From positions 1 to 38,928 of the forward strand of contig CAMIMK010000001.1 in assembly GCA_946221765.1 (NCBI GenBank): DNA of 38,928 nt, in the 5' to 3' direction. This document shows, piece by piece, positions 11,032 through 32,925 of this stretch (positions are counted from its first letter, which is position 1; each line of letters begins with the position of its first letter). The notes beneath the pieces were generated by a model. The model had not been told where the DNA came from. It was given only the letters and a program-made list of their open reading frames with translations, and did no database searches. Source of the stretch: an uncultured Rhodovulum sp. (GTDB lineage Bacteria; Pseudomonadota; Alphaproteobacteria; Rhodobacterales; Rhodobacteraceae). The translations under genes were made by a program, and so were the position numbers.

Positions 11032-11042
11032 GTTGCGCTCCC

Positions 11043-11088: not shown

Positions 11089-11151
11089 TTTCTTGGACCG
11101 TAGCCGTGAGGGATTGCGCAATCAATCGAAAAGGGGCGCGTCGGGGCGCGA

Positions 11152-12305: not shown

Positions 12306-12524
12306 GGCGTTCTTCGGTGGTTCTTTCGCCGTTCCACAGTGCTGAAGCGCGGGCGACAGTCAACGAACACATTGAAATCGCGAATAAAAAGGAAATGCCT
12401 CGCGTTTCCGCGCAAGGCGTTTCGGCGCGCTGGCGCGGGAAATCGACGAGCCCAGCGAATCAGAACGCAGGTTCCGGCCCCCGCGGACCGCTGATAGGCT
12501 CGGCTAAAAGAAACTGGCGATCCG

Positions 12525-13964: not shown

Positions 13965-13999
13965 TGGTCGTGCTACCGGATAATCAGGTCTCGGCCCCT

Positions 14000-14018
14000 T
14001 GGAAGCATGGTGGAAGCA
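14000..14018 (+). repeat. Direct repeat TGGAAGCA x2 at 11-bp period, candidate integrase arm-type sites
   Basis: TGGAAGCA at 14000-14007 and 14011-14018, about 130 bp from the tRNA-fragment att core. Confidence 0.4.
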
Positions 14019-14149
14019 CGAGGGTGAAAATCGCTGCGCAATCCCGACAGATCTTGCGAAGCCGGGCTGCTTTGCAAGGATCGGCAAGTGTTGGAAACTG
14101 CGCAAGAACTCGCGCTTCCGAGTGATTGTTCATGGTTCGTTTGACACGA

Positions 14150-14194
14150 CTCATAACCTGAAGGCCGCAGGTTCAAATCCTGCCCCCGCAACCA
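14150..14194 (+). tRNA. tRNA-Met(CAT) 3' half only (att site fragment, not a functional gene)
   Basis: CTCATAACCTGAAGGCCGCAGGTTCAAATCCTGCCCCCGCAACCA = anticodon loop, T arm, acceptor 3' strand and CCA of an initiator-type tRNA-Met. Upstream sequence has no D arm or acceptor 5' strand. Confidence 0.9.
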
Positions 14195-16602: not shown

Positions 16603-17117
16603 GGCGCGTGGTCCTGTCCGCGCCAGAGCCGCTGACCGCGGCGCATGACGTTTCGAGCTTCACCTGCGGTAAGCCGACGCTCGATCACTGGCTGAAGGCC
16701 CGCGCGCTCTCCAATCAGGAGAAGGGCTTCACCGCGGTGCTGGTCGTGCACGAGGCTGGTCGCGTGGTTGGCTACTACGGCCTGGCGCCGACGGCGGTGG
16801 TTCCGTCGATCCTGCCACGTTCGGTGCGCACCGGCCAGCCGCCTGACCCGGTGCCCTGCCTGCTGCGCGGCCAGCTCGCCACCGATGTGGGCTGGGCCGG
16901 ACGCGGCGTCGGCACCGGCCTCGTGAAGCACGCGCTCGGGCGCTGCGTTCAGGCGGCGGCGCTGGTCGGGGGCCGGGCGCTGATGGTCAATGCGATCGAT
17001 GACGAGGCGGCGGCGTTCTGGTGCAGGCGCGGCTTCGTGCCGTCGAAGGACGATCCGCTGCTGCTGTTCCAGCCGATCGCCGCGATCGCGGCCTCGCTCG
17101 CCGCGGCGCGCCGGTAG
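16599..17117 (+). CDS. GNAT acetyltransferase toxin (TacT/AtaT-like)
   Basis: PEPLTAAHDVSSFTCGKPTLDHWL, VVGYYGL, GQLATD, acetyl-CoA loop WAGRGVG. GTGA overlap with the antitoxin. Confidence 0.9.
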   Translation: MRRVVLSAPEPLTAAHDVSSFTCGKPTLDHWLKARALSNQEKGFTAVLVVHEAGRVVGYYGLAPTAVVPSILPRSVRTGQPPDPVPCLLRGQLATDVGWAGRGVGTGLVKHALGRCVQAAALVGGRALMVNAIDDEAAAFWCRRGFVPSKDDPLLLFQPIAAIAASLAAARR

Positions 17118-17121
17118 AGGC

Positions 17122-17190
17122 AGAGGGTGGAGGGGAGCTTCGTGACGGGCTTGAGTGCCGGGAGAGAGGCTCCTGGCGGCCGTCGTGGAG
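17122..17190 (+). promoter_or_regulatory. Conserved structured leader, copy A (before DUF932)
   Basis: AGAGGGTGG...GCTTCGTGACGGG...CGGGAGAGAGGCTCCTGG...CCGTCGTGGAG. Homologous to 27881-27949. The stem covers the GGAG SD. Confidence 0.65.
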
Positions 17191-17200
17191 ATGTCTCGCG

Positions 17201-18391
17201 ATGAACATGGCAATGGTGGACGCCGGGCGCGGTTCGGCTGGGTACAAGGTCGATGTCAGTCGGGGCGAGCGGATCGGCCGGGTGTCCTCGGAGTGGTTCT
17301 CGCGGCCGGACGACGAGCGCTTCCTCTCGCTCGACGATCTCGCCCGCTCGGTGCGGAGCCGTGCCGAGCGCAGCCGGACGCGGGTGGTGGAGACCGCCGC
17401 GATCCACGTCGAGGCGAGCCGCGCCGATCCCGAGCGGCTGGCGCTGATCCTGCCAGGAGCCGAGCGGCCGGTGGCGCCGACGCACTGGAGCTTCGGTCAG
17501 CTCGCCGCCCAAGTCGGTGCGCCGGCCGCCTACCTCCGGCAGCTGCCGGCGGCGCTCGCCGCGATCAACCTGCAGTACGGGCTGAGCGCACACCGCGCCG
17601 AGCAGATCAAGACGCTGGAGATCGAGGAGGACCGGGTCGAGCTCCGCGCCGTCACCGGGCCCGACTACGGCCGGATCTACGACCACGAGCTCGTCGAGGC
17701 GGTGCAGCGGATCGCCGGCAACGGCACCGGCGACACGCGTTGGAAGGTGCCGGGCGTGCTCGACTGGTCGACGGGCGTCTACAATCCGCGGGTCGACATC
17801 AGCAAGGACACGACCACGCTCTACGCCTCCGACCGCGACGTCTTCCTGTTCCTCGTTGATGACCTCAATCCGATCGAGGCGGGGAAGCTGCCGGACGGTT
17901 CGCCCGACCTGTTCTTCCGGGGGTTCTACTGCTGGAACTCGGAGGTCGGGGCCAAGACCCTCGGGATGGCGAGCTTCTACCTGCGTGCTGTCTGCCAGAA
18001 CCGCAACCTCTGGGGCGTCGAGGACTTCGAGGAGATCACCATCCGCCATTCGAAGCACGCGGCGTCGCGGTTCGCACATGAGGCGGCGCCGGCGCTGCTG
18101 ACCTTCGCCAACTCGTCGCCAATGCCGTTCGTCAACGGCATCCGGGCGGCGCGGGAGAAGGTGGTGGCCCGAAGCGACGACGACCGGACCGAGTTCCTGC
18201 GCAAGCGTGGCTTCTCGCGGCCGGAGACCGGGCGGATCATCGACGCAGTCCTGGCGGAGGAGGGGCGGCCGCCGGAGAGCGTCTTCGACTTCGTCCAGGG
18301 CATCGCCGCCGTCGCCCGTGATAAGCCGCATCAGGACGCGCGGCTCGACCTGGAGGCCAAGGCGAAGACGCTGTTCGATCAGGCGGCTTGA
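17201..18391 (+). CDS. DUF932 domain protein (ICE/plasmid leading-region type)
   Basis: VSSEWFSRPDDERFLSL, PTHWSFGQLA, TGPDYGRIYD, GFYCWNSEVG, RAVCQNRNLWG. SD GGAG before ATG 17201. Confidence 0.85.
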   Translation: MNMAMVDAGRGSAGYKVDVSRGERIGRVSSEWFSRPDDERFLSLDDLARSVRSRAERSRTRVVETAAIHVEASRADPERLALILPGAERPVAPTHWSFGQLAAQVGAPAAYLRQLPAALAAINLQYGLSAHRAEQIKTLEIEEDRVELRAVTGPDYGRIYDHELVEAVQRIAGNGTGDTRWKVPGVLDWSTGVYNPRVDISKDTTTLYASDRDVFLFLVDDLNPIEAGKLPDGSPDLFFRGFYCWNSEVGAKTLGMASFYLRAVCQNRNLWGVEDFEEITIRHSKHAASRFAHEAAPALLTFANSSPMPFVNGIRAAREKVVARSDDDRTEFLRKRGFSRPETGRIIDAVLAEEGRPPESVFDFVQGIAAVARDKPHQDARLDLEAKAKTLFDQAA

Positions 18392-18397
18392 AACGAG

Positions 18398-18427
18398 GGG
18401 CCGAGGGAGCGTAGACACCTTCGGCCC
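18398..18427 (+). terminator. Hairpin after DUF932, abutting the left end of the int/IS91 element
   Basis: GGGCCGAGGG-N10-CCTTCGGCCC. No U tract; the following sequence is the element end. Confidence 0.4.
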
Positions 18428-18556
18428 AAGGACGAAGCCGCTCCGCGGCATTGGCGCGTGTGGCTGGCGTTCGCCGCTGACCTTACCCGGAGGGCATTTG
18501 GCGACCGGCACTTCTGTCCGACCTTGGGGTCTTTCCCTCTCGGACAGGAGGCTTCC

Positions 18557-19444
18557 ATGGTGGAGGAGCGAACCACGCCGCTGCGTGAGCGGATGATCGA
18601 AGACATGCGCATTCGCGGAATGGGCGAGAAGGCGCAGCAGGCGCATATCCGGGCGGTTAAGGACTTCGCCGCGTTCCTCGGGCGGTCCCCCGACATGGCG
18701 ACGCCCGAAGACCTGCGCGCCTACCAGCTCCACATGACTGACGCCGGGATCACGCCTCCCACGTTCAACGCGCGTATCGTGGCGTTGCGCTTCTTCTTCG
18801 GCATGACCTGTGGGCGCGAGGAGATGAAGCGGTACATGCAGTTCCGCACCCAGCCGCGCAAGCTGCCGGTGGTGTTCAGCGTCGAAGAGGTGTCGGACCT
18901 GCTGACGGCGACGCCGGGACCAGGGCTCAAGTATCGCGCAGCGCTCAGCATCTCCTACGGCGCCGGGCTTCGGGCCGCGGAGGTCTGCAACCTCAAGGTC
19001 GGCGACATCGACAGCGACCGGATGCTGATCCATGTCGAACAGGGCAAGGGGCGCAAGGACCGCAAGGTCATGCTGTCGCCGAGCCTGCTGGCGCTGCTGC
19101 GAGACTACTGGCGCGAGGCCCGGCCCGAGGGCTGGCTCTTTCCGGGCAAGCCGAAGATCAACCCGATCTCGCCGCGGCAGTTGAACCGGGCCTTCATGTC
19201 GGCCAAGCACATGGCGGGCATCGCCAAGCCGGCGACGCTGCACACCCTGCGCCACAGCTTCGCCACCCATCTCCTCGAGGCCAACACCGACGTGCGGGTG
19301 ATCCAGGTGCTGCTCGGGCACGCCAAGCTGACTACCACCGCCCAGTACACCCACGTCGCTACCAGGACGATCCGGGACACCGTCAGCCCCTTCGAAGCGC
19401 TGAAGAAGCTGCAGGACGCGACCCTGCGACGAGGTCTCGAGTAG
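18557..19444 (+). CDS. Tyrosine recombinase (integron-integrase/XerD-like, N-terminal SAM-like domain)
   Basis: TPLRERMIEDMRIRG, YGAGLRAAEV, QGKGRKDR, HTLRHSFATHLLE, LLGHAKLTTTAQYTHV: catalytic R-K-H-R-H-Y intact. SD CAGGAGG. Confidence 0.93.
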   Translation: MVEERTTPLRERMIEDMRIRGMGEKAQQAHIRAVKDFAAFLGRSPDMATPEDLRAYQLHMTDAGITPPTFNARIVALRFFFGMTCGREEMKRYMQFRTQPRKLPVVFSVEEVSDLLTATPGPGLKYRAALSISYGAGLRAAEVCNLKVGDIDSDRMLIHVEQGKGRKDRKVMLSPSLLALLRDYWREARPEGWLFPGKPKINPISPRQLNRAFMSAKHMAGIAKPATLHTLRHSFATHLLEANTDVRVIQVLLGHAKLTTTAQYTHVATRTIRDTVSPFEALKKLQDATLRRGLE

Positions 19445-19456
19445 CCTTCGGGGCGC

Positions 19457-20650
19457 GTGCCCCGGCCACGGCTGGAGATCGCCGACATCTTCCGCACCCA
19501 TGGCCCCGCGTGGCGACGGGCCCATGCCGGGCATGTCAGCCTGACCCAGCTCAAGGTGATGTCGGCAATCGAGGCCTGCCGCACCGAGACTCTCGGTGGG
19601 CATGTCGCGGGCTGCGCCAAGTGCGGCCACCAGCACATCGCCTACAACTCCTGCAAGAACCGGCACTGCCCGAAGTGCCAGGGACCGGCGGCGCGCGACT
19701 GGATGGCGGCGCGCGCCGAGGACCTGTTGCCGGTGGAGTATTTCCACGTCGTCTTCACCCTGCCGGCCGAGATCGCCCGCATCGCGTACTGGAACAAAAA
19801 GGCGGTCTACGATCTGCTGTTCAAGGTGTCGGCCGAGACGGTGACGACGATCGCTGCCGATCCGAAGCGGCTCGGCGCGCGGGTCGGGATGACCAGCGTG
19901 CTGCACACCTGGGGCTCGGCGCTGACGCACCATCCCCATGTCCACATGATCGTCCCCGGCGGCGGCCTGTCGCCGGACGGCGCCCGATGGGTGTCCTGCC
20001 GCCCAGGGTTCTTCCAGCATGTCCGGGTGCTGTCGCGCCTGTTTCGACGGCTGTTCCTCGAAGGATTGCTCGCGCTGCATCGCGCCGGCGCGCTCGTCTT
20101 CTTCGGCGATCTGGCCGGGCTGGCAACCGCGCGGGCTTTCGCCGCATGGACCGCACCTTTCCGCAAATCCGAATGGGTGGTCTACGCCAAGCCGCCCTTC
20201 GGGGGGCCCGCGGCGGTGCTGGCCTACCTCGGCCGCTACACCCACCGCGTCGCCATCTCAAACGCCCGGCTTGTCAGCGCGGATGCCGATACGGTCGCCT
20301 TCCGCTGGAAGGACTACCGCATCAAGTCCGGCGACCGACAGAAGGTGATGCGGCTCGCGACGGACGAGTTCATCCGACGGTTCCTGATCCACGTCCTTCC
20401 CGACGGCTTCCACCGCATCCGGCACTACGGCCTGCTCGCCAGCGCCGCCCGCAAGGCCAACGTCGCGAAGATCCGTGACCTGCTCGACGCCGACCGGCCG
20501 GAACAAAAACCGCAACCGATCGCCGAGATCGTCCCGCTCACCCTGCGCGAGCCATGCCCCTGCTGCGGCGGTCCGATGCGCATCATCGAGATATTCGGTC
20601 CCGGTCAGCCGCCACGATCCCGGGCGCCGCCATCGGAGCGGGCGGCATGA
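19457..20650 (+). CDS. IS91-family (HUH, Y2) transposase
   Basis: Zn-binding CAKCG...YNSCKNRHCPKC, LHTWG...HPHVHM (HUH), YLGRYTHR (Y2), HVLPDGFHRIRHYG. Confidence 0.95.
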   Translation: MPRPRLEIADIFRTHGPAWRRAHAGHVSLTQLKVMSAIEACRTETLGGHVAGCAKCGHQHIAYNSCKNRHCPKCQGPAARDWMAARAEDLLPVEYFHVVFTLPAEIARIAYWNKKAVYDLLFKVSAETVTTIAADPKRLGARVGMTSVLHTWGSALTHHPHVHMIVPGGGLSPDGARWVSCRPGFFQHVRVLSRLFRRLFLEGLLALHRAGALVFFGDLAGLATARAFAAWTAPFRKSEWVVYAKPPFGGPAAVLAYLGRYTHRVAISNARLVSADADTVAFRWKDYRIKSGDRQKVMRLATDEFIRRFLIHVLPDGFHRIRHYGLLASAARKANVAKIRDLLDADRPEQKPQPIAEIVPLTLREPCPCCGGPMRIIEIFGPGQPPRSRAPPSERAA

Positions 20651-20989
20651 CGCCACGCCCGTCATCCTGGCCGATCCAACCCCGGATCCCGATCGGGTGC
20701 CGGCCGACCTGTTCTTCGCCCAGTCAGCGCCACCTCCCGAAACGCGGGGCGAACCGGCCAAACGGTCTCGCCGAAACCCCGCGCATCGCCGGAGCCCAAC
20801 TGCCGCCGCCCGTGACGACGAGAGCCATCCGCCCGTCCACGACGACAGCAGCGTCAACCGTCACCGCGCTTTCCCCATAGACAGCACCCAGCCCCACGCG
20901 GCTTCCTCCTTGGGAGGTTTTCCAACGCGGGCCGAGGTCGCGCCCGTGACAGGCGTCACGCCCCGGCCCGCATCAGAAAACCTTCACCA

Positions 20990-21046
20990 AAGCTGCCGTT
21001 GGCCCTGACCCGGCTTCGCGCCGCAGCATGCTCAATAGCAGCCGTT
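20990..21046 (+). repeat. Two-box motif, left copy (AAGCTGCC...CGCAGCAT...TAGCAGCC)
   Basis: Boxes start 46 bp apart. Inverted counterpart at 27780-27835. Confidence 0.55.
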
Positions 21047-21199
21047 CGGGCTCAGAAATCGCGCGAGCCTTCATCGAGGCCCAAGCGTGACAGTAATCTT
21101 CCGGCTGGCACCCGGCTTGTCGGCGATGTTACCGCTTGCGAGCCGATGCAAGAATTGCGTTTGTTCTCGTTTTGTGCCAAAATTGTGAGGGAGGCGGTG

Positions 21200-23194
21200 A
21201 TGGCGGACGCACACTTTAGCGTACAGGTCGAGAGCGACCACCTGAAACGGCTGTCCGCAGCTCGGCCGATCCCCGCCGTGTCGGAGCTCATCTGGAATGC
21301 ACTCGACGCCGACGCCACCCGAGTAGACCTTGAAGTCGATGCCGATGAGATCGCCATGCGGTCGATCACGGTTCGCGACAATGGCACGGGTTTCCCGCAC
21401 GCTCGAGCGGAAGAGCTGTTCGGACACGTGGGCGGATCGTGGAAGGCGCACGGCTCTCGCTCCGCGCATAACCGCGTTCTCCACGGGAAGGAGGGGAAGG
21501 GTCGCCTGAAGGCCTTGGGTCTCGGCCGCGTCGCAGACTGGGATGTCCGCTATCGCGAGGGCGACCGGCTGCTGGGCTACCGCATCTCACTCATCCGCGA
21601 CGACCTGAAGGACGTGCGGGTATCCGAGCCGGTGGAGATCAACGCAGACCTGGGCACCGGGGTCGACGTCCGCATATCCGAACTCGACCGGACCTATCGG
21701 TCGCTGGCGTGGGACGCTGCAGTGCAGGCGCTCTCCGAGGTGTTCGCGCTTTACCTGACCGACTATACCGATGCCGCGGTCTTCGTCGAGGGCGCGTGCC
21801 TCGATCCGTCGGCCCTGATCGTCGATCGTAAGCCCATCCCTCTCTCGGCGATCGTCGATGAGGGACAGGAGTTTCCCGCCGAGGTTGAGGTCATCGAGTG
21901 GAGGTCTGGCGCAGAGCGGTGGGTGTTCCTCTGCGGCCCGGAGGGTTTCCCCTTCCATCGGATCACGCCGCGCTTTCAGACGCCGGGCTTCCGCTTCTCG
22001 GCCTACCTGAAGTCCAGCTACGTGAGCCTCCTGCAGGAGCGGGGCCAGATCGACCTGGCCGAGATGATCGCACCGCTCCAGACCGTCTATGACGAGGCGT
22101 CGGACAAGATCAAAGCCCACTTCCGCGCCAAGGAGGTCGAGACCGCGAGGTCCGAGATCGAGCAGTGGAAAACTGAGAAGGTCTACCCCTACAAGACGGA
22201 ACCGCAGACGTCCGTCGAGCAGGTTGAACGCCAAGTGTTCGACATCGTGGCGCTCAAGGTCAACGAACACCTCCCTGAATTCGCGGAGCAGGGACACCGG
22301 TCCAAGGCCTTCCAGCTCCGCATGCTAAGGCAAGCGATAGAGCGCGGCCCGGAGGAGCTTCAGCTCATCCTGACCGAGGTGCTCGACCTCCCCGAGCGAA
22401 CTCGCGCGGAACTGGCGAAGCTCCTCGAGGACGCCAACCTCACCAACGTCATCACGGCCGCCCGGCAGGTGGCCGACCGACTCAAGTTCATCCACGGCCT
22501 CGACGCGCTGCTATTCGACCGCGAGAGCCAGAAGCTCCTGAAGGAGCGCAGCCAACTTCACCGGATGATCGCCGACAACAACACATGGATGTTCGGCGAG
22601 GAGTTCAACCTGACCGTCGACGACCAGTCGTTGACAGAGGTGCTCCGAAAGCACCGGAAGCTCATCGGCGCCGACGTAGTGATTGACGACGAGCCCGTGA
22701 GGCGCATCGGCGGAAAGGTCGGCATCGTGGACCTGATGCTTTCGAGGTCTGTTCCCCGCAGCCGCCCAGACGAGCGCGAGCACCTGATCATCGAGCTCAA
22801 GCGCCCGTCGGTGAAGATCGGCAGGGACGAAATTGGCCAGATCAAGGACTACGCCTTCGCGATCGCGGAGGATCAGCGCTTCGCCTCCCACACCACGCGC
22901 TGGAGTTTCTGGGTGGTCTCCAACGAGCTCGATGCGTTCGCTAAGAGAGACACGCGGCAGGATAGCAAGCCAAGGGGACAACTCTACAGCGGCGACGGCA
23001 TCGAGATCTGGGTGAAGCCTTGGGGCGAGATAATTGATGGGTGCAAAGCCCGCATGAACTTCGTGCAAGACCACCTTCAAGCGAACGTCGATCGCGAGAA
23101 CGCCCTCAAGCATCTAAAGCAGGTCTACGCCAAGGTCCTGGCCGGCGTGGCAGAGGGGTACGCCGCCGACGAGGAGACACAAGCCGAAGGCTGA
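21200..23194 (+). CDS. GHKL (HATPase/MORC-like) ATPase fused to a C-terminal PD-(D/E)XK-type nuclease domain
   Basis: AVSELIWNALDADA, VRDNGTGF, HGKEGKGRL, GTGV at the N-terminus. VDLMLSR...IIELKRP...QIKDYA near the C-terminus. SD GGGAGG before ATG 21200. Confidence 0.8.
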   Translation: MADAHFSVQVESDHLKRLSAARPIPAVSELIWNALDADATRVDLEVDADEIAMRSITVRDNGTGFPHARAEELFGHVGGSWKAHGSRSAHNRVLHGKEGKGRLKALGLGRVADWDVRYREGDRLLGYRISLIRDDLKDVRVSEPVEINADLGTGVDVRISELDRTYRSLAWDAAVQALSEVFALYLTDYTDAAVFVEGACLDPSALIVDRKPIPLSAIVDEGQEFPAEVEVIEWRSGAERWVFLCGPEGFPFHRITPRFQTPGFRFSAYLKSSYVSLLQERGQIDLAEMIAPLQTVYDEASDKIKAHFRAKEVETARSEIEQWKTEKVYPYKTEPQTSVEQVERQVFDIVALKVNEHLPEFAEQGHRSKAFQLRMLRQAIERGPEELQLILTEVLDLPERTRAELAKLLEDANLTNVITAARQVADRLKFIHGLDALLFDRESQKLLKERSQLHRMIADNNTWMFGEEFNLTVDDQSLTEVLRKHRKLIGADVVIDDEPVRRIGGKVGIVDLMLSRSVPRSRPDEREHLIIELKRPSVKIGRDEIGQIKDYAFAIAEDQRFASHTTRWSFWVVSNELDAFAKRDTRQDSKPRGQLYSGDGIEIWVKPWGEIIDGCKARMNFVQDHLQANVDRENALKHLKQVYAKVLAGVAEGYAADEETQAEG

Positions 23195-23257
23195 TTCTCT
23201 GCGTTGCGACCCGACTCGGACTGAGTCCCAGCTGCAACGAGACAGAGAATCTCAGCC
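23189..23257. other. 69-nt imperfect inverted repeat between the two cargo units
   Basis: GGCTGA-TTCTCTG-CGTTGC...GACTC-N5-GAGTC...GCAACG-aga-CAGAGAA-tc-TCAGCC. Confidence 0.7.
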
Positions 23258-23359
23258 CTCAAAACCGGTTTCGCTGGCGCCTCAGCCCGCGACGTTGCTA
23301 AACAATGGGGAAAGGCGCGCGATCGTAGACTGCGTCCAGAAAGTCGTAAAGGCTCAAAT

Positions 23360-24442
23360 ATGGCGTCGGCACAGCAGCTTATCGGGCTCGTAAAGAGCCA
23401 TGCGGAGGGGGATGAAGAGCGTTTCTTCGATCTCGCGATGCAGCTTGCCGCAGCGGAAGAGCAGCGTGGTCATACTCGACTGGCGGAACAGCTGCGCCAG
23501 TGGGCGGAGGCGTCTCGCGTTCCGCGTCAAAGCGCAACTTCAAAGCTGACGCCGCTGGCCGCCCCGCGCGGCGATCTCGCGGGCATTCTGGGTGCGCGCT
23601 ATCCGACAACCTCGCTCAGCGATCTGATCTTGCCGGACCACCTTTCCGACGAATTGCGCCAGATCGTTGTCGAGACTCGGAAGCGTGACCTCCTCGAGGA
23701 GAAGGGTCTCTATCCGCGGCGACGTCTTCTTTTTTCGGGCCCGCCGGGTACGGGCAAGACGCTGAGCGCCGAGGCACTGGCCGGTGAACTGAAATTCCCT
23801 TTGTTCACGGTGCTTTTGCACGGGCTTATCACCAAATTCATGGGTGAGACCGCGCAGAAACTGCGTCTGATTTTTGATGCGATCCGCACGACTCGCGGCG
23901 TCTACCTGTTCGACGAAATTGATGCGCTGGCAGCATCTCGTGGGAACGAAAACGACGTTGGCGAAGCAAGGCGAATTCTAAATTCATTCTTGCAGTTTCT
24001 CGATGAGGACACTGGCCCATCGATCGTTGTCGCGACCACAAATATTCCTGAAATCCTCGACCGGGCAATTCTTCGGCGTTTCGAACTGGTGCTGCCCTAC
24101 GAGCTGCCCTCGCGGGAAGCAGTCCAAAAGGCAATGCGACACCGCCTCATTGGATTCGACGTTGATGGCGTGGACTGGGACGCTGTATCTGTGGTTGCGC
24201 AAGGCCTTTCAACGGCAGATGTCGTTGCTGCGGGCGAAGACGCGGGGAGACGCGCTGTCTTGTCCTCAACGGACAAAATTCTGACAAATACGCTCATCGC
24301 CTCAATGGAGCGCAGGCGTTCGTTGCAAGGACTTGGAACATCTCTGAATGGAACGAAATCGCCCTCATCTGATCGTAAACGGCCTCGGACAGGCAGTCGC
24401 GTTTCAGGCGAAGGGCGGCGGTCAGGCAAATCGACCGAGTGA
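23360..24442 (+). CDS. ietA: AAA+ ATPase of an IetAS-type system
   Basis: Walker A GPPGTGKT, ITKFMGETAQKL, Walker B LFDEIDAL, DVGEARRILNSFLQ, LDRAILRRF. Directly upstream of an S8 peptidase. Confidence 0.85.
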   Translation: MASAQQLIGLVKSHAEGDEERFFDLAMQLAAAEEQRGHTRLAEQLRQWAEASRVPRQSATSKLTPLAAPRGDLAGILGARYPTTSLSDLILPDHLSDELRQIVVETRKRDLLEEKGLYPRRRLLFSGPPGTGKTLSAEALAGELKFPLFTVLLHGLITKFMGETAQKLRLIFDAIRTTRGVYLFDEIDALAASRGNENDVGEARRILNSFLQFLDEDTGPSIVVATTNIPEILDRAILRRFELVLPYELPSREAVQKAMRHRLIGFDVDGVDWDAVSVVAQGLSTADVVAAGEDAGRRAVLSSTDKILTNTLIASMERRRSLQGLGTSLNGTKSPSSDRKRPRTGSRVSGEGRRSGKSTE

Positions 24443-26783
24443 TGTCCCAAACCGTCGCGAACACGCTCAGGCGCTGCTGCAGGCAATCGACGCGATCGGC
24501 GATCCGGCCGCGCAGAACCGGCCCGGTGTCTACCTTGAGATGCAAGGCAGGCCGAACGAACCCTTTGTAACGAAGAGCCTGGATGCCAGTGGCCTCCATC
24601 TTCTCAAGGTTTCCACTGACCCCGAGAATGCAGACGCCCCGGCTCGTGCCACCGTTTTCGCTTCGGCTGCAGGCATGGGTAAGCTCAGAGGGAAGATTCG
24701 GGCCTTTCAGGATGAGGACACGGGGAAAGGCCGGCCCAAGAATGCGGACTTGGTGCAGAGCATCTCGGCCATCGTCGAAGCAGGGTTGCGCGCTCTTTGG
24801 CGGAGCCCTCACGCGAGATTCCCTGCCCAAGGCCAGAGGTACCCTTGGGAGATATGGTTGGAACGAAATGAAGCGGACCGTTTCCTGGAGCGAGCGCAGG
24901 CTCTCGGGATCCGCTTCGAAGGGGATCGTCTGCAGTTTCCCGAGGATGTTGTTGTTGTTGGTCATGGAACGCACGAGCAAATTGTCACAGCCGTTCGTAA
25001 TTTTGGAACAGTGAAAGCTCTTGCTGCACCTTCTGTTCTTTCCGAATTCTTCGACGGAATGCCGCCGGAGGAACAGGCGGCGTGGGCCCAAGCCATGCAA
25101 GGTCTAATTCAGGCACCAAATGCTGCTGATCCGAGGTTCATCACACTCCTCGATAGCGGCATTGGACTGAACCATCCTCTCATCCAGCCTTTTCTTGATC
25201 CAGCTGACCGCCACGCAGCCGAACCAGGTTGGGGCTTGGACGACACGCATGGACACGGCACTCAGCTGGCCGGGCTTTCGCTCTTCGGCGATCTGCTCCC
25301 GGTAATCCAAAGCAACATCCCATTGCACGTTGGTTATCGGCTTGAGTCTGCCAAAATCATCCCCGACGCAGGCCAGAACCCTCACCACCTGCTGGGTGCG
25401 GTGGTTCTCAAAGCCGTAAATGCGGTTGAAGCCAATGCGGAGCGCGGTCGAACCTTCGCGCTGGCCAGCACCACCGACGAAGACACGCCGCACGACGGCG
25501 CGCCGACATCGTGGTCGAGCGAAATCGATCAGCTGACCGCAGGTGTGTCAGGCAACCAACGTCGACAGCGGCTGTTTGTGATATCCGCGGGGAACACCGA
25601 TCAAAACCGATTCCGTGGTGCGGATTACCTTTCGATTTGCGATGACCCTGACCACGAGATTCAATCCCCGGCTCATGCTTGGAATTCCATCTGTATTGGG
25701 GCGCAGACCGAAAAGGTGAGGATGCCGGCTGCGCTGCCTGGGCAGGCCGTTGCGCCCATGGGCGATCTGGCACCGTCGTCGCGGACCGCAAGTTGGTCGA
25801 AACACTGGCCGATCAAGCCCGATATGGTGATGGAGGGTGGTAACTGGGTTCAGGACCGTTTTCCGCCGCCCATGAAGCACCCGGCCCTCTCGCTGCTCAC
25901 CACAGATCACAACTACCCCTTGCGCTCCCTTACAACGACCGCTGATACGAGCGCCGCGACGGCGCTGGCGGCAAAAGCGATTACGGAGCTTTGGGAAGAC
26001 TATCCGCACCTGTGGCCCGAAACGATCAGGGCGATATTTGTCTCGTCTGCGCGATGGACGGAACGGATGATGTCGCACCTTCCGCGAAATCCTACAAAGG
26101 GAGACTTCGCCCGGCTGTTTCAGAGATATGGCTACGGCGTCCCTGATCAGGCACGAGCGCGACGTAGCGCCGCCAATGCCCTATCCCTTGTCGTCCAGGA
26201 CACGATAATTCCGTATCGGCCGAGTGCCACCGCTGGGGCTGAGCCTGTCCACAATCAGATGAAGTTCTTCCAGCTGCCTTGGCCGAGAGAGGCGCTTCGG
26301 CAGCTTGGCACAGCGGAGGTCACGCTTCGCGTGGCACTCAGCACTTTCATCGAACCCAATCCTTCAGAAGCGGCCCGCGGATCGAAGTTCCGCTACGCGT
26401 CCCACAATCTTCGGTACAAACTGAACCGGGCCAACGAGAACCCGGCGCAGTTCCAGGCAAGAATCAACAAACTCGCCGATGACCCCGACGCAGAGCCTGT
26501 AGCCGAAGATGACGGCTGGACGTTCGGCCGTAACCGGCGGGACGTCGGTTCCTTGCATATCGATGAGTTTCGTTGTCCCGCCTCGGATCTTGCGCGCCGA
26601 AATCTCCTCGCTGTCCACCCTGTTGCGGGATGGTGGAAATCCAAGTCGGTTCAAAACGTCGACCAGAAAACGGCGCGTTTTGCACTGGTCGTCGAATTAG
26701 ATGCCGGCGTCGTGGAGGCCGATCTCTACGCCGAAGTCAAAGCGGCGATCGCGAACCTGATCCTCCCCCAGATTGCGGTTTAG
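24348..26783 (+). CDS. ietS: S8 (subtilisin-like) serine peptidase of an IetAS-type system
   Basis: Triad motifs LLDSG, HGHGTQLAG, TSAATA, plus oxyanion ISAGN. Also PIKPDMVMEGGN, WPETIRA, YGYGVP. Confidence 0.87.
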   Translation: MERNRPHLIVNGLGQAVAFQAKGGGQANRPSDVPNRREHAQALLQAIDAIGDPAAQNRPGVYLEMQGRPNEPFVTKSLDASGLHLLKVSTDPENADAPARATVFASAAGMGKLRGKIRAFQDEDTGKGRPKNADLVQSISAIVEAGLRALWRSPHARFPAQGQRYPWEIWLERNEADRFLERAQALGIRFEGDRLQFPEDVVVVGHGTHEQIVTAVRNFGTVKALAAPSVLSEFFDGMPPEEQAAWAQAMQGLIQAPNAADPRFITLLDSGIGLNHPLIQPFLDPADRHAAEPGWGLDDTHGHGTQLAGLSLFGDLLPVIQSNIPLHVGYRLESAKIIPDAGQNPHHLLGAVVLKAVNAVEANAERGRTFALASTTDEDTPHDGAPTSWSSEIDQLTAGVSGNQRRQRLFVISAGNTDQNRFRGADYLSICDDPDHEIQSPAHAWNSICIGAQTEKVRMPAALPGQAVAPMGDLAPSSRTASWSKHWPIKPDMVMEGGNWVQDRFPPPMKHPALSLLTTDHNYPLRSLTTTADTSAATALAAKAITELWEDYPHLWPETIRAIFVSSARWTERMMSHLPRNPTKGDFARLFQRYGYGVPDQARARRSAANALSLVVQDTIIPYRPSATAGAEPVHNQMKFFQLPWPREALRQLGTAEVTLRVALSTFIEPNPSEAARGSKFRYASHNLRYKLNRANENPAQFQARINKLADDPDAEPVAEDDGWTFGRNRRDVGSLHIDEFRCPASDLARRNLLAVHPVAGWWKSKSVQNVDQKTARFALVVELDAGVVEADLYAEVKAAIANLILPQIAV

Positions 26784-27672
26784 GGCTCGGGCGAGCGGGG
26801 CGGCAGCGGCAGGATGGTGATGTTTCGCGGGACGACGACGAGGGCGCGGGCGAGGTGCCAGCCCGCCTTGTCGAGGATGAGGACCGCATGGGCATCGGGC
26901 GCGACGGCGGCGCTGATCTCCCCGAGGTGCGCCTGCATGGCGGGCGTGTCGCAGAACGGCATGACGATGCCGGCGCCCTTGCCCTCGGCCGGGCAGATCG
27001 CGCCGAAGATGTAGGCCCAGGCGGTGCGCTGGTCGTGCGGCGCCCGTGGCCGGGTACCGCGCTTCGCCCACCTCCGGGTGAGCTTGTTCTTCTGCCCGAT
27101 CCTGGCCTCGTCCTGGAACCAGAGCTCTATGCGCCTGCCCGGGTGGGCGGCCCGGATCTCCGCCACGCGCTCCGGGAGACTTTTTTAAACGCTTCCGCCG
27201 CCTCCGGATCCTGGGCGTAGTGCCGCGGCCGCGCCGAGAGCTTGCGGAAGCCGAGCGCCCGGAGTTCCCGACCGACCGTCTCCTCGCTCACCGACACCTC
27301 GAATTCCTCCCACAGCCACTGCACCAGGTCGATCCGCCGCCAGCGCACCACGCCATCGCGCCAGGGCTCGGGGCCCGCCTCCACAACCCGCCCCAGCGCC
27401 GCTCGCTGCTCCCCGGTCAGCGTCGGTGCCCTGCCGGGCGCCTTGCGGTCGACCAGACCCTCCGGCCCCTCCGCGTTGAAGCGGAGCACCCAGTCCCGCA
27501 CGATCTGCAATCCGACCCCGCCCAACCGGGCGGCCTCCGTCCGCGTGCCGCCGTCGAGGATCGCCGCGACCGCCAGCAGTCGACGCACCTGCTTCGCGTC
27601 CCCGCTGGCTCGCGCCAGACGGCACACATCGTCACCGCAGAAATCGTCTCGAAGCTCGATCGCTGCCGCCTT
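26784..27672 (-). pseudogene. IS630 transposase, start codon lost and C-terminus truncated
   Basis: AAG at 27672-27670 where ATG is expected (x-AAAIELRDDF...QIVRDWVLRFN). orfB WFQDEARIGQK...ILDKAGWH...LPPRSPE then stop. Confidence 0.8.
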
Positions 27673-27760
27673 GGAAAACCCCCTCGTTCTCCATGGTGAA
27701 TCACGCCGGCACGCTCAGGGAAATCCCACTTCGTGAGTCAGCAACCGCGCCCGCTGGTAT
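26784..27760 (-). mobile_element. IS630-family element remnant (left end intact, 3' end truncated)
   Basis: End ATACCAGCGG next to TA (27761-27762). orfA HTH + orfB DDE joined by an A6G frameshift site (27180-27186). Stops at PPRSPE, before the last catalytic Glu. Confidence 0.85.
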
Positions 27761-27779
27761 TAATGCCACCGTGCGGCCC

Positions 27780-27840
27780 GTCCGCTTCCAGGAGATGCTG
27801 CGCCAGCGACGCCGCACGTGCATCAGTCCGCTTCCCGCCC
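27780..27840 (-). repeat. Two-box motif, right copy (GTCCGCTTCC x2 with ATGCTGCG between), inverted relative to 20990-21046
   Basis: GTCCGCTTCC at 27780-27789 and 27826-27835 (46-bp spacing). Ends in GCCC (27837-27840). Confidence 0.55.
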
Positions 27841-27880
27841 TGAACGACTGCGGAGGTCTTCACCACAGCCGCCGAGAGTG

Positions 27881-27949
27881 AGAGGGTGGCGCGTCGCTTT
27901 GCGACGGGTTCGGGCTCGGGAGAGAGGCTCCCGGGCGCCCGTCGCGGAG
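27881..27949 (+). promoter_or_regulatory. Conserved structured leader, copy B (before ParB-like gene)
   Basis: AGAGGGTGG...GCTTTGCGACGGG...CGGGAGAGAGGCTCCCGG...CCCGTCGCGGAG. Homologous to 17122-17190. Confidence 0.65.
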
Positions 27950-27958
27950 TGAAGACTG

Positions 27959-30094
27959 ATGGCGACTGCCACCCAGAAGATCACGCTCGCGTCCGCGCGC
28001 GACATCCCCTTCAACAAGCTCGTGCTGAGCCAGGCCAACGTCCGCCGGGTCAAGGCCGGTGTCTCGGTCGACGAGCTCGCCGAGTCGATCGCCCGGCGCG
28101 GGCTGATCCAGAGCCTGCACGTCCGGCCGGTGCTCGATGCCGACGGCAAGGACACCGGCACCTACGAGGTCCCCGCCGGCGGTCGGCGCTTCCGGGCGCT
28201 GGAGTTGCTGGTGAAGCAGAAACGGCTCGCACGGACCGCGCCGGTGCCCTGCGTCGTCTCGGACGTTGGCGGCGGCATCCTGATCGACGAGGTGTCGCTC
28301 GCCGAGAACATCGAGCGCGCGCCGCTGCATCCGCTCGACCAGTTCCGCGCCTTCCAGGCGCTGCGCGAGAAGGGGATGACCGAGGAGGCGATCGCCGCCG
28401 CCTTCTTTGTCGGCGTCGCGGTGGTGAAGCAACGGCTACGGCTCGCCTCGGTGTCGCCAATCCTGCTCGAAGTCTATGCCGACGACGGCATGACGCTCGA
28501 GCAGCTGATGGCCTTTACCGTCTCGGAGGACCATGCACGGCAGGAGCAGGTCTGGTCGACGATCGGCAGCGGCTGGAACAAGGAGCCCTTCCAGATTCGC
28601 CGGATGCTGACCGAGACGACGGTGCGCGCCTCCGACCGGCGGGCGCTCTTCGTCGGCGTCGAGGCCTACGAGGCGGCCGGCGGCCTGGTGTTGCGCGATC
28701 TCTTCCAGTCCGACGACGGCGGCTGGCTGCAGGACGCGGGCCTGCTCGACCGGCTGGTGACGGAGAAGCTCAAGGCCGCCGCCGACGCGGTCGCCGGGGA
28801 AGGCTGGAAGTGGGTGGAGGCCGCGGTCACCATTCCCTACGGCACGGCCTTCGGCCTGCGCGCACTCGACGGCACGCCTCTCGCGATGAGCGAGGCGGAG
28901 GTCGCGCAGCGCGACGCGCTGCAGGCCGAGTTCGATCGGCTGAACGAAGCGTACGACAGCGCCGACGAGCTGCCGGACGAGGTCGACGCGCGGCTCGGCG
29001 AGATCGAGGCGGCGCTCGACGCCATCGACACCCGGCCGATGCAGTACGACCCTGCCGAGGTCGCCATCGCCGGCGTCTTCGTCAGCGTCGCGTCGGACGG
29101 GTCGCTGAACATCCAGCGGGGCTTCGTCCGGCCGGAGGACGAGCCGCGGATCCAGCCCGACGGCGAGGAGGCCTCGGGCTACGAGCCGGCGCATACCGCC
29201 GGTGCCTCCGGCGAACCCGCCGTCCAGCGCGCGGTCATCACCGTCGGCGGCCAGCCGGCGGCGCCCGAAGCCGAAGAGGAGGAAGACGACGGCATCCGGC
29301 CGCTGCCGGACCGGCTGATCACCGAGCTGACCGCCCACCGGACGCTGGCGCTGCGCGACGCCGTTGCCGCCAACCCGCGGGTGGCGATGACGGTGCTCCT
29401 GCACAAGCTCGCCTCCGACGCCTTCGGCCGGCGCTCGCGCGAAGGCTGCCTCGAGGCGGAGGTCCGCGAGGTCTACACCCCCATCCAGGCCGACGAGCTC
29501 GGCGAGAGCGCGTCGGCGACCTCGGTTGTCGCGCGGCACGCCCGCTGGAGCGCCGAGGTGCCGACGGAGGACGGGGCACTCTGGGACTGGATCGTCGCGC
29601 TCGACGCCGAGGATCGCATGGCGCTTCTGGCCCACTGCGTCAGCCTCGGGGTCAACGCCCTCCACGAGCGGCCGAACCCCTACGGCGCCGGCGTCAGTGC
29701 CTTCGGGCTGACGAAGCGGCTGGCGCAGGCCGACCGGCTGGCGCGGGCGACCGGGCTCGACATGGTCGAGGCCGGATGGCGGCCGACGGTCGGCAACTAC
29801 CTCGGCCGGGTCACCAAGGCGCGCATCCTCGAGGCGGTGCGCGACGGCGCCGGCGAGCCCGCGGCGCAGCTCATCGACCACCTGAAGAAGGGCGACATGG
29901 CGCGGGAGGCGGAGCGCTTGCTCGCCGACCGCGGCTGGCTGCCCGAGCCGCTGCGGCTGGTTGGGGACGATGCAGTCGATGCGGGCGGGGAGGATGTCGG
30001 CGATGACGAGAGCCTCCCGGCATTCCTCGCCGACGACGACGAGACTGGCGAAGAGGCGGAGGACGACGAGCCGGCCGGTATCGCGGCCGAGTAG
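27959..30094 (+). CDS. Long ParB/RepB/Spo0J-family protein (ICE/plasmid type)
   Basis: IPFNKLVLSQANVR, LAESIARRGLIQSL, AGGRRFRAL, SLAENIERAPLHPLDQFRAF, HTH, C-terminal GWLPEPLR and acidic tail. Confidence 0.9.
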   Translation: MATATQKITLASARDIPFNKLVLSQANVRRVKAGVSVDELAESIARRGLIQSLHVRPVLDADGKDTGTYEVPAGGRRFRALELLVKQKRLARTAPVPCVVSDVGGGILIDEVSLAENIERAPLHPLDQFRAFQALREKGMTEEAIAAAFFVGVAVVKQRLRLASVSPILLEVYADDGMTLEQLMAFTVSEDHARQEQVWSTIGSGWNKEPFQIRRMLTETTVRASDRRALFVGVEAYEAAGGLVLRDLFQSDDGGWLQDAGLLDRLVTEKLKAAADAVAGEGWKWVEAAVTIPYGTAFGLRALDGTPLAMSEAEVAQRDALQAEFDRLNEAYDSADELPDEVDARLGEIEAALDAIDTRPMQYDPAEVAIAGVFVSVASDGSLNIQRGFVRPEDEPRIQPDGEEASGYEPAHTAGASGEPAVQRAVITVGGQPAAPEAEEEEDDGIRPLPDRLITELTAHRTLALRDAVAANPRVAMTVLLHKLASDAFGRRSREGCLEAEVREVYTPIQADELGESASATSVVARHARWSAEVPTEDGALWDWIVALDAEDRMALLAHCVSLGVNALHERPNPYGAGVSAFGLTKRLAQADRLARATGLDMVEAGWRPTVGNYLGRVTKARILEAVRDGAGEPAAQLIDHLKKGDMAREAERLLADRGWLPEPLRLVGDDAVDAGGEDVGDDESLPAFLADDDETGEEAEDDEPAGIAAE

Positions 30095-32823: not shown

Positions 32824-32925
32824 GACGCCCGGAGAGGGAGAGGGCTGCCGGGAGATCGGGTGGTCCGGGCGGGTCGAGAGAGTCGCCCGGGGCCGATCAC
32901 AACTTCCCTCTCCGAGGTACTCCCG

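What the first reader, a model, noticed from the sequence alone, without database searches (positions are those of the whole stretch)
18424..27840. Candidate integron-like capture system: tyrosine recombinase + IS91 transposase with motif-bounded defence cargo
Seen: a ~9.4 kb block interrupts the DUF932-ParB backbone. The left boundary reads CTTCGGCCC|AAGGACGAAGCCGC and the right reads CTTCCCGCCC|TGAAC, so GCCC occurs at both junctions (18424-18427 and 27837-27840). After int and tnp comes a terminal hairpin, then cargo bounded by inverted two-box motifs, with a bulged hairpin between the two cargo units. Both cargo units are defence-type, and ietAS is visibly more AT-rich than the backbone. 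Established: IS91/ISCR HUH enzymes mobilise adjacent DNA through ssDNA, and integron integrases recombine folded ssDNA sites. Inference: the recombinase loads cassettes at the element end and the HUH transposase moves the array. This is the best candidate for an undescribed system in the window.
Basis: partly seen in the sequence, partly recalled or inferred. Interest (0 to 1): 0.88.

Follow-up and report, generated by a model that had tools for sequence, protein, structure and literature searches.

The report
IS91 element beside captured defence genes
The 9.4 kb block is a patchwork of three mobile pieces, namely a complete IS91-type insertion sequence with its own recombinase, a separately travelling defence-gene segment and a broken IS630, and is not a new integron-like cassette system.

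Summary
It is a mosaic.

1. 18430-20990 is a discrete 2.56 kb IS91-family IS. It encodes an intact HUH/Y2 transposase and a 295-aa tyrosine recombinase. It is multi-copy in Rhodobacterales and Rhizobiales, and its copies end exactly at ...GAAAACCTTCACC(NN).
2. 20991-27841 is a passenger segment (GHKL ATPase gene, ietA, ietS). Two wastewater metagenomes from other studies hold it at about 99% identity. There its left neighbour is not this IS, and one contig joins across the IS630 remnant.

The recombinase lacks the IntI-specific insertion, and 10 of 14 other copies have ordinary genes at their right end. Integron-like cassette loading is therefore not supported.

"GCCC at both junctions" is nevertheless meaningful. 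Across 25 copies, the last two bases of the right end pair with the foot of the terminal hairpin and match the left-flank target in 23. Both ends of the passenger segment lie at such sites.

Best reading: IS91-type rolling-circle transposition juxtaposed the IS and the passenger segment. Whether by one-ended capture or by tandem targeting is unresolved.

The parts
17021..18391 (+). DUF932-like backbone gene (left flank)
   Evidence: Pfam DUF932, E 0.003, below cut-off. 79% nt identical to the paralogue on contig C5.
18419..18429 (+). Left target half: CTTCGGCCC-AA
   Evidence: The dinucleotide at -4,-3 matches the IS right-end dinucleotide in 23 of 25 copies. In the ACC subtype it does so in 6 of 6.
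18430..20990 (+). Complete IS91-family insertion sequence with accessory tyrosine recombinase (about 2,561 bp)
   Evidence: Three copies at 99.9-100% identity in Leisingera plasmids sit in unrelated flanks. Matches in 79 plasmid records and in 55 of 400 family genomes. Ends defined.
18430..18452 (+). Left end: GGAC followed by a conserved GC-rich stem-loop (GCCGCTCCGCGGC)
   Evidence: Conserved in 25 alignable copies. It matches the description of IS91/IS801 left (terminus) ends in PMC3189936.
18557..19444 (+). int: Xer/IntI-like tyrosine recombinase, 295 aa (the ORF is open from 18458)
   Evidence: Pfam Phage_integrase 2.5e-40. TIGR02249 scores 169 against a cut-off of 265. The IntI insertion is absent.
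19457..20650 (+). IS91-family Y2 HUH transposase, 397 aa
   Evidence: NF033538 scores 429.6 bits against a cut-off of 125. Y2_Tnp and Zn_Tnp_IS91 domains. HHPHVH and YLGRY motifs.
20898..20914 (+). Subterminal inverted copy of the left end
   Evidence: 17 nt, 94% complementary to 18425-18441 (I21).
20912..20988 (+). Right-end hairpin. Its foot (G20912, G20913) pairs with the last two IS bases (C20987, C20988).
   Evidence: Fold z -3.0. In 25 copies the foot pairs are GC 14 / CG 11, and CG 10 / AU 8 / GC 5 / UA 1.
20991..27841 (+). Passenger segment. Without the IS630 remnant it is about 5.9 kb.
   Evidence: Runs X4 and X5 hold it at about 99.3% identity. Fit starts at 20990 (X4 record 18). A joint runs from 26783 to 27760, and 82 letters continue beyond it.
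21200..23194 (+). GHKL (HATPase_c_3) ATPase gene, function unknown. The ORF is open from 20999.
   Evidence: Pfam HATPase_c_3. Relatives align from residue 67. The Atlas family consists of 655-680-aa 'ATP-binding proteins'. Weak N-terminal matches to restriction-enzyme models.
23190..23256 (+). Hairpin between the GHKL gene and ietA, probably a terminator
   Evidence: z -2.8, 0 of 200 shuffles fold as well. Homology of ietAS to other genomes begins at 23266-23296.
23360..24442 (+). ietA (AAA+ ATPase)
   Evidence: PADLOC IetA 8.6e-69. 93.6% aa identical to a Paracoccus aminovorans plasmid.
24348..26783 (+). ietS (S8 subtilase). The ORF is given as listed; the true start may lie later.
   Evidence: PADLOC IetS 3.6e-32, Pfam Peptidase_S8 8.5e-42.
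26785..27760 (-). IS630-family remnant, truncated at its 3' end. Slippery TTTAAAAAAG lies near 27183. The TA target is at 27761-27762.
   Evidence: NF033545 model positions 1-134 and 137-261 of 299, in two frames. Loose ends at 26785 and 27760 come from full copies. X4 and X5 contigs skip it, with 15 other letters in its place. The end was defined against plasmid copies.
27761..27841 (+). Right terminus of the passenger segment: GTCCGCTTCC twice (27780-27789, 27827-27836), ending CTTCCCGCCC-T
   Evidence: It is contiguous with the ietS 3' flank in X4 and X5. It resembles the left-flank signature of the IS subtype.
27842..27874 (+). Backbone intergenic right half, starting with GAAC
   Evidence: GAAC is among the IS801 target tetranucleotides listed in PMC3189936. 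13 of 28 right flanks of this IS begin [AGC]A[AG][GC], against a 5% background.
27959..30094 (+). ParB-like backbone gene (right flank)
   Evidence: Pfam ParB_N. Conserved from about window 27868 onward in 63 of 200 other family genomes.

Best explanation
The block is a nested and tandem mosaic, not one system.

Shown:
(a) 18430-20990 is a complete, discrete IS91-family IS. Its order is: terminus-type left end, a Xer/IntI-like tyrosine recombinase gene, a Y2 HUH transposase gene, and an origin-type right-end hairpin.
(b) 20991-27841 is a separately travelling passenger segment that carries a GHKL ATPase gene and ietAS.
(c) An IS630 copy inserted at a TA inside the right end of that segment. 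A deletion then removed the 3' part of the IS630 and 15 bp behind the ietS stop.
(d) The IS family inserts without target duplication at sites that mimic its own nick site. The target reads GGC-YZ-NN | RAAS. YZ equals the last two IS bases, and these pair with the foot of the right-end hairpin.

Inferred:
Both ends of the passenger segment lie at such sites. Its left end abuts the IS right end and has a typical right-flank sequence (AAAG..GTT). Its right end reads CTTCCCGCCC-T | GAAC. IS91-type rolling-circle transposition therefore brought the IS and the passenger segment together at one nick-site-like target in the DUF932-ParB spacer. Two routes are possible:
- one-ended capture of neighbouring DNA, with a circular intermediate re-opened at the terminus nick;
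- two successive insertions into a target that each insertion regenerates.

The recombinase is an accessory gene of the IS. Its role is unknown: circle integration and multimer resolution are guesses. Nothing shows that it loads cassettes.
For: - Discrete IS. Three copies at 99.9-100% identity in unrelated flanks. Two copies in G315 are 99.9% identical over 2,570 bp. Matches in 79 plasmid records and in 55 of 400 family genomes.
- Intact enzymes.
- Hairpin covariation in 25 copies. Left-flank dinucleotide equals right-end dinucleotide in 23 of 25: CC 6/6, GG 10/11, TC 5/6, AC 2/2.
- Right flanks begin [AGC]A[AG][GC] in 13 of 28, against a 5% background.
- One head-to-tail IS junction (L071). 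One copy sits directly behind a 152-nt mini-element with a right-end-like terminus.
- Passenger segment. In X4, 32 of 4,907 laid letters differ; in X5, 26 of 3,810. These are two studies other than the likely source. X4 record 18 fits from 20990 and carries 248 further letters that do not fit. The joint 26783>27760 has a side of 82 in both runs. Backbone-like contigs in the same runs are only 91-93.5% identical.
- Assembly. In run X1, contigs span all three outer junctions.
- Literature. Rolling-circle transposases often miss termini and carry adjacent DNA (passages of PMC5714925). IS801 recruited 290-1,431 nt in vivo (passages of PMC3189936).
Against: - No copy of IS plus passenger segment was found elsewhere, and no circle or empty site was seen.
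- By its left-end features the IS has canonical polarity. Simple read-through would carry DNA on the DUF932 side, not the cargo. The capture route therefore needs a permuted circle or a second insertion.
- The right end of the passenger segment does not resemble the IS right end beyond CTTC..CC. The local alignment is at background level (84% of random windows score as well), and the end-anchored alignment ranks 2,863 of 77,798. Its fold is unremarkable: z -1.95, 7 of 200 shuffles.
- GCCC within +/-2 nt of a boundary has roughly 6% chance at this composition (my estimate, no call).
- What lies left of 20990 and right of 27841 in X4 and X5 could not be read.
- The DUF932-ParB spacer varies in the backbone family anyway: 8 of 30 loci have the DUF932 end within 1.5 kb of ParB, with gaps of 135-1,329 bp.
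Confidence: 0.55

Rival explanations
1. Independent arrivals. The defence segment reached the variable DUF932-ParB spacer by a route unrelated to IS91, such as homologous exchange between related conjugative elements or another recombinase. The IS later landed at its left edge because that junction happens to offer its target.
For: - The spacer is variable in the backbone family.
- X4 and X5 hold backbone-like contigs at depths similar to the cargo contigs, about 4-6. The IS-free cargo may therefore sit in a related element.
- The window's IS has a fully typical left flank and right flank, as expected for a simple insertion.
- The cargo ends show no significant IS-end homology.
- ietAS alone occurs without the GHKL gene on a Paracoccus plasmid.
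Against: - The IS would have to insert exactly at the point where X4's homology to the window's cargo begins (20990).
- The right end of the cargo carries the subtype's CTTC..GCCC-N signature next to GAAC.
- Cargo is 99.3% identical in X4 and X5 while backbone-like contigs are 91-93.5%. This points to recent movement of a defined unit.
Confidence: 0.27
2. The tyrosine recombinase captures circular cassettes at the folded right end of the IS, acting like attI/attC, and the HUH transposase moves the resulting array.
For: - IS91-borne recombinases are the closest relatives of IntI (passage of 10.1101/542381).
- The right end is a conserved single-strand hairpin with an internal loop.
- Insertion sites resemble the joined ends of the IS, as attB resembles attP.
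- In 4 of 14 other copies defence-type genes lie directly at the right end: Thoeris, methylases with a helicase, a reverse transcriptase with type I RM, and HNH with a giant helicase. None was recognised on the left side of these four.
- One copy (G052) abuts an 8.6 kb segment with 48-bp inverted ends, 41 of 48 identical.
Against: - The IntI-specific insertion is absent: query residues 184-208 stand against IntI4 residues 180-246.
- No array was seen, since there is never more than one segment.
- 10 of 14 right flanks are ordinary genes.
- Recently moved copies end at the right end without cargo.
- The window's boxes are weak.
- No cassette circle or shared recombination site was shown.
Confidence: 0.08
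3. Assembly artefact. The MAG contig joins unrelated pieces at repeated IS sequences.
For: - The genome is a MAG of 426 contigs.
- The IS630 interior is covered in X1 only by diverged copies, records 4 and 5.
Against: - X1 contigs built by another assembler span 18263-19927, 19898-26972 and 27583-28324 without differences.
- X20 holds pieces of the whole stretch at 100% identity.
- The IS is single-copy in the genome.
Confidence: 0.02

Closest known systems
IS91 / IS801 / IS1294 (IS91 family, rolling-circle IS)
   Same: - Y2 HUH transposase with a zinc-binding N-terminus.
- No target duplication.
- Unlike ends, each with secondary structure.
- The left end starts with GGAC/GAAC followed by a GC-rich stem-loop.
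- Short purine-rich target next to the right end.
- Documented one-ended transposition that carries neighbouring DNA.
   Different: - Carries an extra tyrosine recombinase gene between the left end and tnp.
- The target is longer and bipartite (GGC-YZ-NN | RAAS).
- A dinucleotide of the target covaries with the foot of the right-end hairpin. I did not find this stated for IS91 in searches.
- That ISfinder lists IS91 members with an integrase ORF is my recollection, from no call.
ISCR elements
   Same: HUH IS related to IS91, with terIS upstream and oriIS downstream of the gene. They are found with varied passenger genes next to oriIS (passages of PMC13393415).
   Different: ISCR transposases are described as Y1 (passage of PMC10288648). 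This one has YLGRY. Both ends here are intact, and the passengers here are defence genes rather than resistance genes.
Integrons (IntI, attI, attC cassettes)
   Same: The recombinase belongs to the IntI-like subgroup. A folded single-strand hairpin lies at the element's end. Varied genes lie beside it.
   Different: There is no IntI insertion, and the score is below the family cut-off. There is no attC-bounded array and no cassette repeats. The unit that moves is the IS itself.
IS200/IS605 (IS608) guide-sequence targeting
   Same: An HUH element in which the cleavage site at the IS end and the target are alike and are tied to bases at the foot of a terminal hairpin. For IS608 this is my recollection of published work, read in no call.
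   Different: The transposase family differs (Y1, dimeric). Here base-pair recognition is inferred from covariation only.
Helitrons
   Same: A hairpin close to one end acts as terminator, and bypassing it captures flanking DNA (abstract of PMC4778049, search listing).
   Different: Helitrons are eukaryotic and have a RepHel fusion. Here the hairpin end appears to be the origin end.
IetAS defence system
   Same: An AAA+ ATPase and an S8 protease in an operon (PADLOC).
   Different: Both genes score below NCBIfam equivalog cut-offs: 191 against 510, and 34 against 900. The pair is divergent.

Membership tests
Integron | IntI-type integrase with the IntI-specific helical insertion in the catalytic domain | tested here: not met
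   The alignment to VchIntIA (2a3v) splits. Query 17-183 aligns to chain 13-179, and query 209-280 to chain 247-318. So 25 query residues stand against 67. TIGR02249 scores 169.4 against a cut-off of 265.
Integron | Array of cassettes, each ending in an attC hairpin, next to attI | tested here: not met
   There is one segment only. The flanks of 14 other copies show no repeated cassette boundaries. The window's box similarity is weak.
IS91 family | HUH / two-tyrosine transposase with an IS91 zinc-binding domain | tested here: met
   NF033538 scores 429.6 bits against a cut-off of 125. Pfam Y2_Tnp 7.8e-67 and Zn_Tnp_IS91 5.1e-33. HHPHVH and YLGRY motifs.
IS91 family | Discrete multi-copy unit with unlike structured ends and no target duplication | tested here: met
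IS91 family | Insertion beside a specific tetranucleotide that resembles the left-end start (GAAC/GGAC/CAAG/CGAC in IS801) | tested here: inconclusive
   The left end starts GGAC or GAAC in 25 of 25 alignable copies. Right flanks start [AGC]A[AG][GC] in 13 of 28, against a 5% background. This is a looser rule than in IS801 (PMC3189936).
IS91 family | Rolling-circle transposition with single-strand or circular intermediates | not testable with these tools
   Needs an experiment. No circle junction was seen in the contigs.
IetAS | Adjacent IetA (AAA+) and IetS (S8 protease) genes | tested here: met
   PADLOC IetA 8.6e-69 and IetS 3.6e-32. Both are below NCBIfam equivalog cut-offs. Defence activity was not tested.
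IS630 family | HTH plus DDE transposase, TA target, terminal inverted repeats | tested here: met
   NF033545 matches in two frames up to model position 261 of 299. The outer repeat and the TA are present. The inner end is missing, so this is a remnant.

The most novel reading that the evidence does not exclude
IS91 elements that carry an IntI-like recombinase may be a two-enzyme gene-gathering platform. Their nick or recombination site would be coded by the foot of the origin hairpin. Each insertion would regenerate that site, so passenger segments, often defence systems, would pile up at the origin end and travel between conjugative elements. This would be a functional cousin of integrons and ISCRs, built from an HUH nuclease and the closest relatives of IntI.
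Probability: 0.15. Interest if true: 0.75.

Novelty: new variant of a known kind. Interest (0 to 1): 0.45.

Why it matters
The practical message is that this is not an undescribed integron-like system. It is a known kind of IS next to a defence-gene passenger, plus a broken IS630.

Two points are still worth a specialist's time.

1. In this IS91 subgroup three things covary across four subtypes: the hairpin foot, the last two IS bases and the target. This suggests that target choice is coded in DNA and could be re-programmed. That is directly testable by swapping two base pairs.
2. A 5.9 kb ietAS-bearing segment is about 99% identical in metagenomes of two further studies, while the surrounding element is only about 92% identical there. 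In 4 of 14 related IS copies, other defence systems lie at the same (origin) end. This bears on how defence genes move between conjugative elements.

Tried and rejected
- Empty site. No allele closer than the 75-80% paralogue on C5 was found. Its 90-nt spacer cannot be aligned base by base.
- Exact 24-mer of the cargo's left end in metagenome contigs: 0 matches.
- GHKL protein in metagenome contigs: 1 locus at 44% identity. In genome contigs: 2 loci at 61%. No near-identical cargo was found.
- Cargo DNA in 400 family genomes: best matches 77-83%. In plasmids: 81.7%, ietAS only.
- Similarity of the block's right end to the IS right end: rank 2,863 of 77,798 and background-level local score. Rejected as evidence for a terminus-like end, apart from the short CTTC..CC motif.
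- Position-weight matrix of the flank box: 14 hits at 8 bits or more in the window, so it is too noisy. Boxes m4-m6 score below threshold.
- Flank-module profile. Its 12 training flanks match by construction. Of the flanks left out, L075 and L091 match at E 0.003-0.005. The window and the other ACC-type flanks do not match.
- Generic search for inverted termini in 15 flanks: only G052 is clear. Its cargo has no match in plasmids.
- Rfam: nothing in the window.
- Read laying. X4 has next to no cover at 90% or more over 18668-20752, and X5 has only 90-95% relatives there. No contig joins across the IS, so this is not used as evidence of absence. The joints with sides of 21-37 letters are taken as noise.
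- The IS names searched from memory gave no statement on an integrase ORF.
- No structure or complex prediction was run. None would have changed the reading.

Full report
OBSERVATION

The window is contig C1 of a 426-contig MAG. The DUF932-like gene lies at 17021-18391 and the ParB-like gene at 27959-30094. The sequence between them differs from a paralogous backbone on contig C5 of the same genome. There the DUF932 stop is followed after 90 nt by the conserved ParB leader. In the window the same two points are 9,483 nt apart. The quoted junction strings are present.

Pfam, PADLOC and NCBIfam give, left to right:
- a tyrosine recombinase;
- an IS91-family transposase;
- a GHKL ATPase protein;
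- IetA and IetS;
- on the minus strand, two frames of an IS630 transposase that stop at model position 261 of 299.

GC is 0.58-0.60 over ietAS against 0.68-0.74 in the backbone.

THE INT-TNP PAIR IS AN ORDINARY, DISCRETE IS

- A search of 72,556 plasmids with the whole block found 79 records. The long matches all cover window 18421-20989 only and are annotated 'site-specific integrase | IS91 family transposase'.
- Leisingera sp. M527 has three copies at 99.9-100% identity in unrelated surroundings.
- Two copies in genome G315 are 99.9% identical over 2,570 bp.
- 55 of 400 genomes of the family hold a relative.
- All copies begin GGAC(G/T)AAGCCGC and end ...GAAAACCTTCA plus two variable bases. 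In the window this gives 18430 to 20988-20990.
- The transposase has HHPHVH and YLGRY motifs.
- The recombinase is 295 aa from the ATG at 18557 and is closest to XerC-like, XerA and XerD structures.
- Against VchIntIA, query residues 184-208 stand opposite chain residues 180-246. The IntI-specific insertion is therefore missing.
- A preprint on tyrosine recombinases (10.1101/542381; I saw one passage) states that IS91-borne recombinases fall in the integron-like subgroup and lack this insertion. The pairing is therefore already on record.

HOW THE IS CHOOSES ITS SITES

- The right end folds into a hairpin at 20912-20988 (z -3.0).
- In an alignment of 25 copies, 7 of 17 pairs keep pairing through changes on both sides. 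The two foot pairs read GC 14 / CG 11, and CG 10 / AU 8 / GC 5 / UA 1. These foot pairs involve the last two bases of the IS, which define four subtypes: CC, GG, TC and AC.
- The host dinucleotide four and three bases before the left end is the same as this terminal dinucleotide in 23 of 25 copies: CC 6/6, GG 10/11, TC 5/6, AC 2/2.
- The window's left flank, CTTCGGCCC-AA, is of the CC type.
- Right flanks begin [AGC]A[AG][GC] in 13 of 28 copies, against 5% expected. The window's AAAG..GTT is typical.
- One locus shows two copies head to tail (L071). One Leisingera copy sits directly behind a 152-nt mini-element that ends like an IS right end and recurs in other plasmids. The IS thus inserts at sites that look like its own nick site, and each insertion leaves such a site at both of its junctions.
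- The left end (GGAC/GAAC plus a conserved GC-rich stem-loop) matches what passages of PMC3189936 describe for the left, terminus end of IS91/IS801. In ISCR elements terIS lies upstream of the gene (passages of PMC13393415).
- I therefore take the left end as terminus and the hairpin end as origin. This polarity is inferred, not shown.

THE CARGO IS A UNIT OF ITS OWN

Twenty-one runs were listed as holding parts of the stretch. I laid four of them.

- X1 is probably the source study. Its contigs span 18263-19927, 19898-26972 and 27583-28324 without differences, so the junctions are not an artefact of the MAG assembly.
- X4 and X5 are wastewater metagenomes of two other studies. They hold 20990-26783 with 32 differences in 4,907 letters and 26 in 3,810.
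- In X4 a 1,171-nt contig fits from 20990 onward, and its other 248 letters fit nothing in the stretch.
- In both runs a contig joins 26783 to 27760 with 15 other letters in between and runs on for 82 letters, to about 27841.
- The segment therefore exists without the IS630 remnant and, in X4, without this IS end beside it.
- Backbone-like contigs in the same runs are only 91-93.5% identical.
- The segment is itself composite. ietAS alone is 81% identical (IetA 93.6% aa) on a Paracoccus aminovorans plasmid, from 23296 onward. The hairpin at 23190-23256 (z -2.8) closes the GHKL gene.
- The GHKL protein belongs to a widespread family of 655-680-aa 'ATP-binding proteins' of unknown role. Calling it a defence gene is a guess.

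THE IS630 REMNANT

- Loose ends from full copies mark 26785 and 27760.
- Comparison with plasmid copies places the outer inverted repeat and a TA at 27761-27762.
- Relative to X4 and X5, the window lacks 15 bp behind the ietS stop and the 3' part of the IS630. The simplest history is insertion followed by an adjacent deletion.

HOW THE BLOCK AROSE

The right end of the passenger segment reads CTTCCCGCCC-T and is followed by GAAC. This is the left-flank signature of the CC subtype next to a canonical IS801-type target tetranucleotide. Its left end is a typical right flank of the IS. Two routes fit.

1. One-ended rolling-circle capture.
   - In a donor the IS sat to the right of the segment, and transposition ran past the terminus into it. 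IS801 did this over 290-1,431 nt (PMC3189936).
   - The circular product was then opened at the intact terminus nick, giving IS followed by cargo. This is the logic recalled from the ISCR literature for genes lying next to oriIS.
2. Two successive insertions into one regenerating target, in either order.

I could not tell the two routes apart, because the flanks in X4 and X5 were not readable and the scans found no near-identical copy.

Points against any IS91 role:
- The cargo's right end has no significant likeness to the IS right end.
- The box motifs are weak. Left terminus against reverse-complemented right terminus scores 5, against -7 +/- 4.4; 77 of 11,104 windows reach that score.
- The DUF932-ParB spacer varies among related elements in any case.

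COMPARISON WITH OTHER COPIES

I extended the right flanks of 15 other copies to as much as 10 kb; one, L100, reached a contig end after 1.5 kb and had no genes to annotate, so 14 were used.

- In 10 of 14 the adjacent genes are transporters, regulators, metabolic or plasmid genes.
- In 4 of 14 they are defence-type:
  - Thoeris ThsA and ThsB;
  - two methylases with a helicase and an ATPase;
  - a reverse transcriptase with type I RM;
  - HNH with a 1,749-aa helicase.
- No recognised defence gene lies on the left side of those four.
- A conserved module of about 75 nt follows the right end in 12 flanks (alignment; profile matches there are by construction). It also appears in two flanks left out of the profile, at E 0.003-0.005. 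It does not appear in the window or the other CC-type copies.
- One copy (G052) abuts an 8.6 kb segment with 48-bp inverted termini, 41 of 48 identical.

These observations keep open the possibility that passenger segments gather at the origin end of this IS subgroup. The numbers are small, and no array was seen.

VERDICT

The block is a known kind of IS, a defence passenger and a broken IS630. Most likely (0.55) the IS and the passenger were brought together by IS91-type transposition at a nick-site-like target. Integron-like loading by the recombinase is given 0.08. The three-way covariation of hairpin foot, IS end and target is the most interesting by-product. I found no statement of it in searches, which were not exhaustive. 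Subscription papers on IS91 and the TnPedia/ISfinder texts were not available to me.

Noticed in passing
window 17115-17190 and 27875-27950: A repeat of about 80 nt precedes both the DUF932 and the ParB genes. The same element recurs 2.5-15 kb from ParB in related backbones of other genomes. It has no Rfam family. It may be a shared leader or promoter of the transfer-region genes.
   Followed up: partly
window 112-6232: A separate defence-type cluster at GC about 0.60: the 3' end of a C5 cytosine methylase, an AIPR protein and a Z1-domain protein.
   Followed up: no
window 10171-15812 and 32860-37275: Features of an integrative or conjugative element: a WYL regulator, a P4-type integrase (343 aa), DUF6880, a large serine recombinase and a 1,471-aa Strawberry-notch helicase.
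   Followed up: no
G000 contig C5 (L008 9467-12912): A second DUF932-ParB backbone, 75-80% identical, lies in the same MAG and has no insertion in the spacer.
   Followed up: partly
G000 contig C3 30567-31846: A paralogue of the GHKL ATPase gene, 77% nt identical.
   Followed up: no
L042 3853-4004; L113 1501-1655; L114 1501-1652: A 152-nt mini-element (98.7-99.3% identical) in Leisingera and Phaeobacter plasmids ends ...GTCAAAAGAGCCC, like an IS right end. In L042 the left end of the IS follows it directly.
   Followed up: partly
L071 about 2930-2984: A head-to-tail junction of two IS copies: right end, AA, then GGACGAAGCC.
   Followed up: no
L106 (G052), flank positions 2-50 and 8532-8579: An 8.6 kb segment (LysR, EamA, MFS, MerR and LysE genes) with 48-bp inverted termini (41 of 48 identical) starts 2 nt after an IS right end.
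   Followed up: partly
L108 (G213) 408-1868: A Thoeris pair (ThsA Macro type and ThsB TIR) lies directly behind the right end of an internally deleted IS copy.
   Followed up: no
window 27762-27792 and L043 about 1535-1580: The IS630 copies in the window and in a Methylorubrum plasmid both lie next to a GGAAGC(G/T)GACGG(G/T)CCGC-like palindromic motif. This may be a preferred target of that IS630 group.
   Followed up: no
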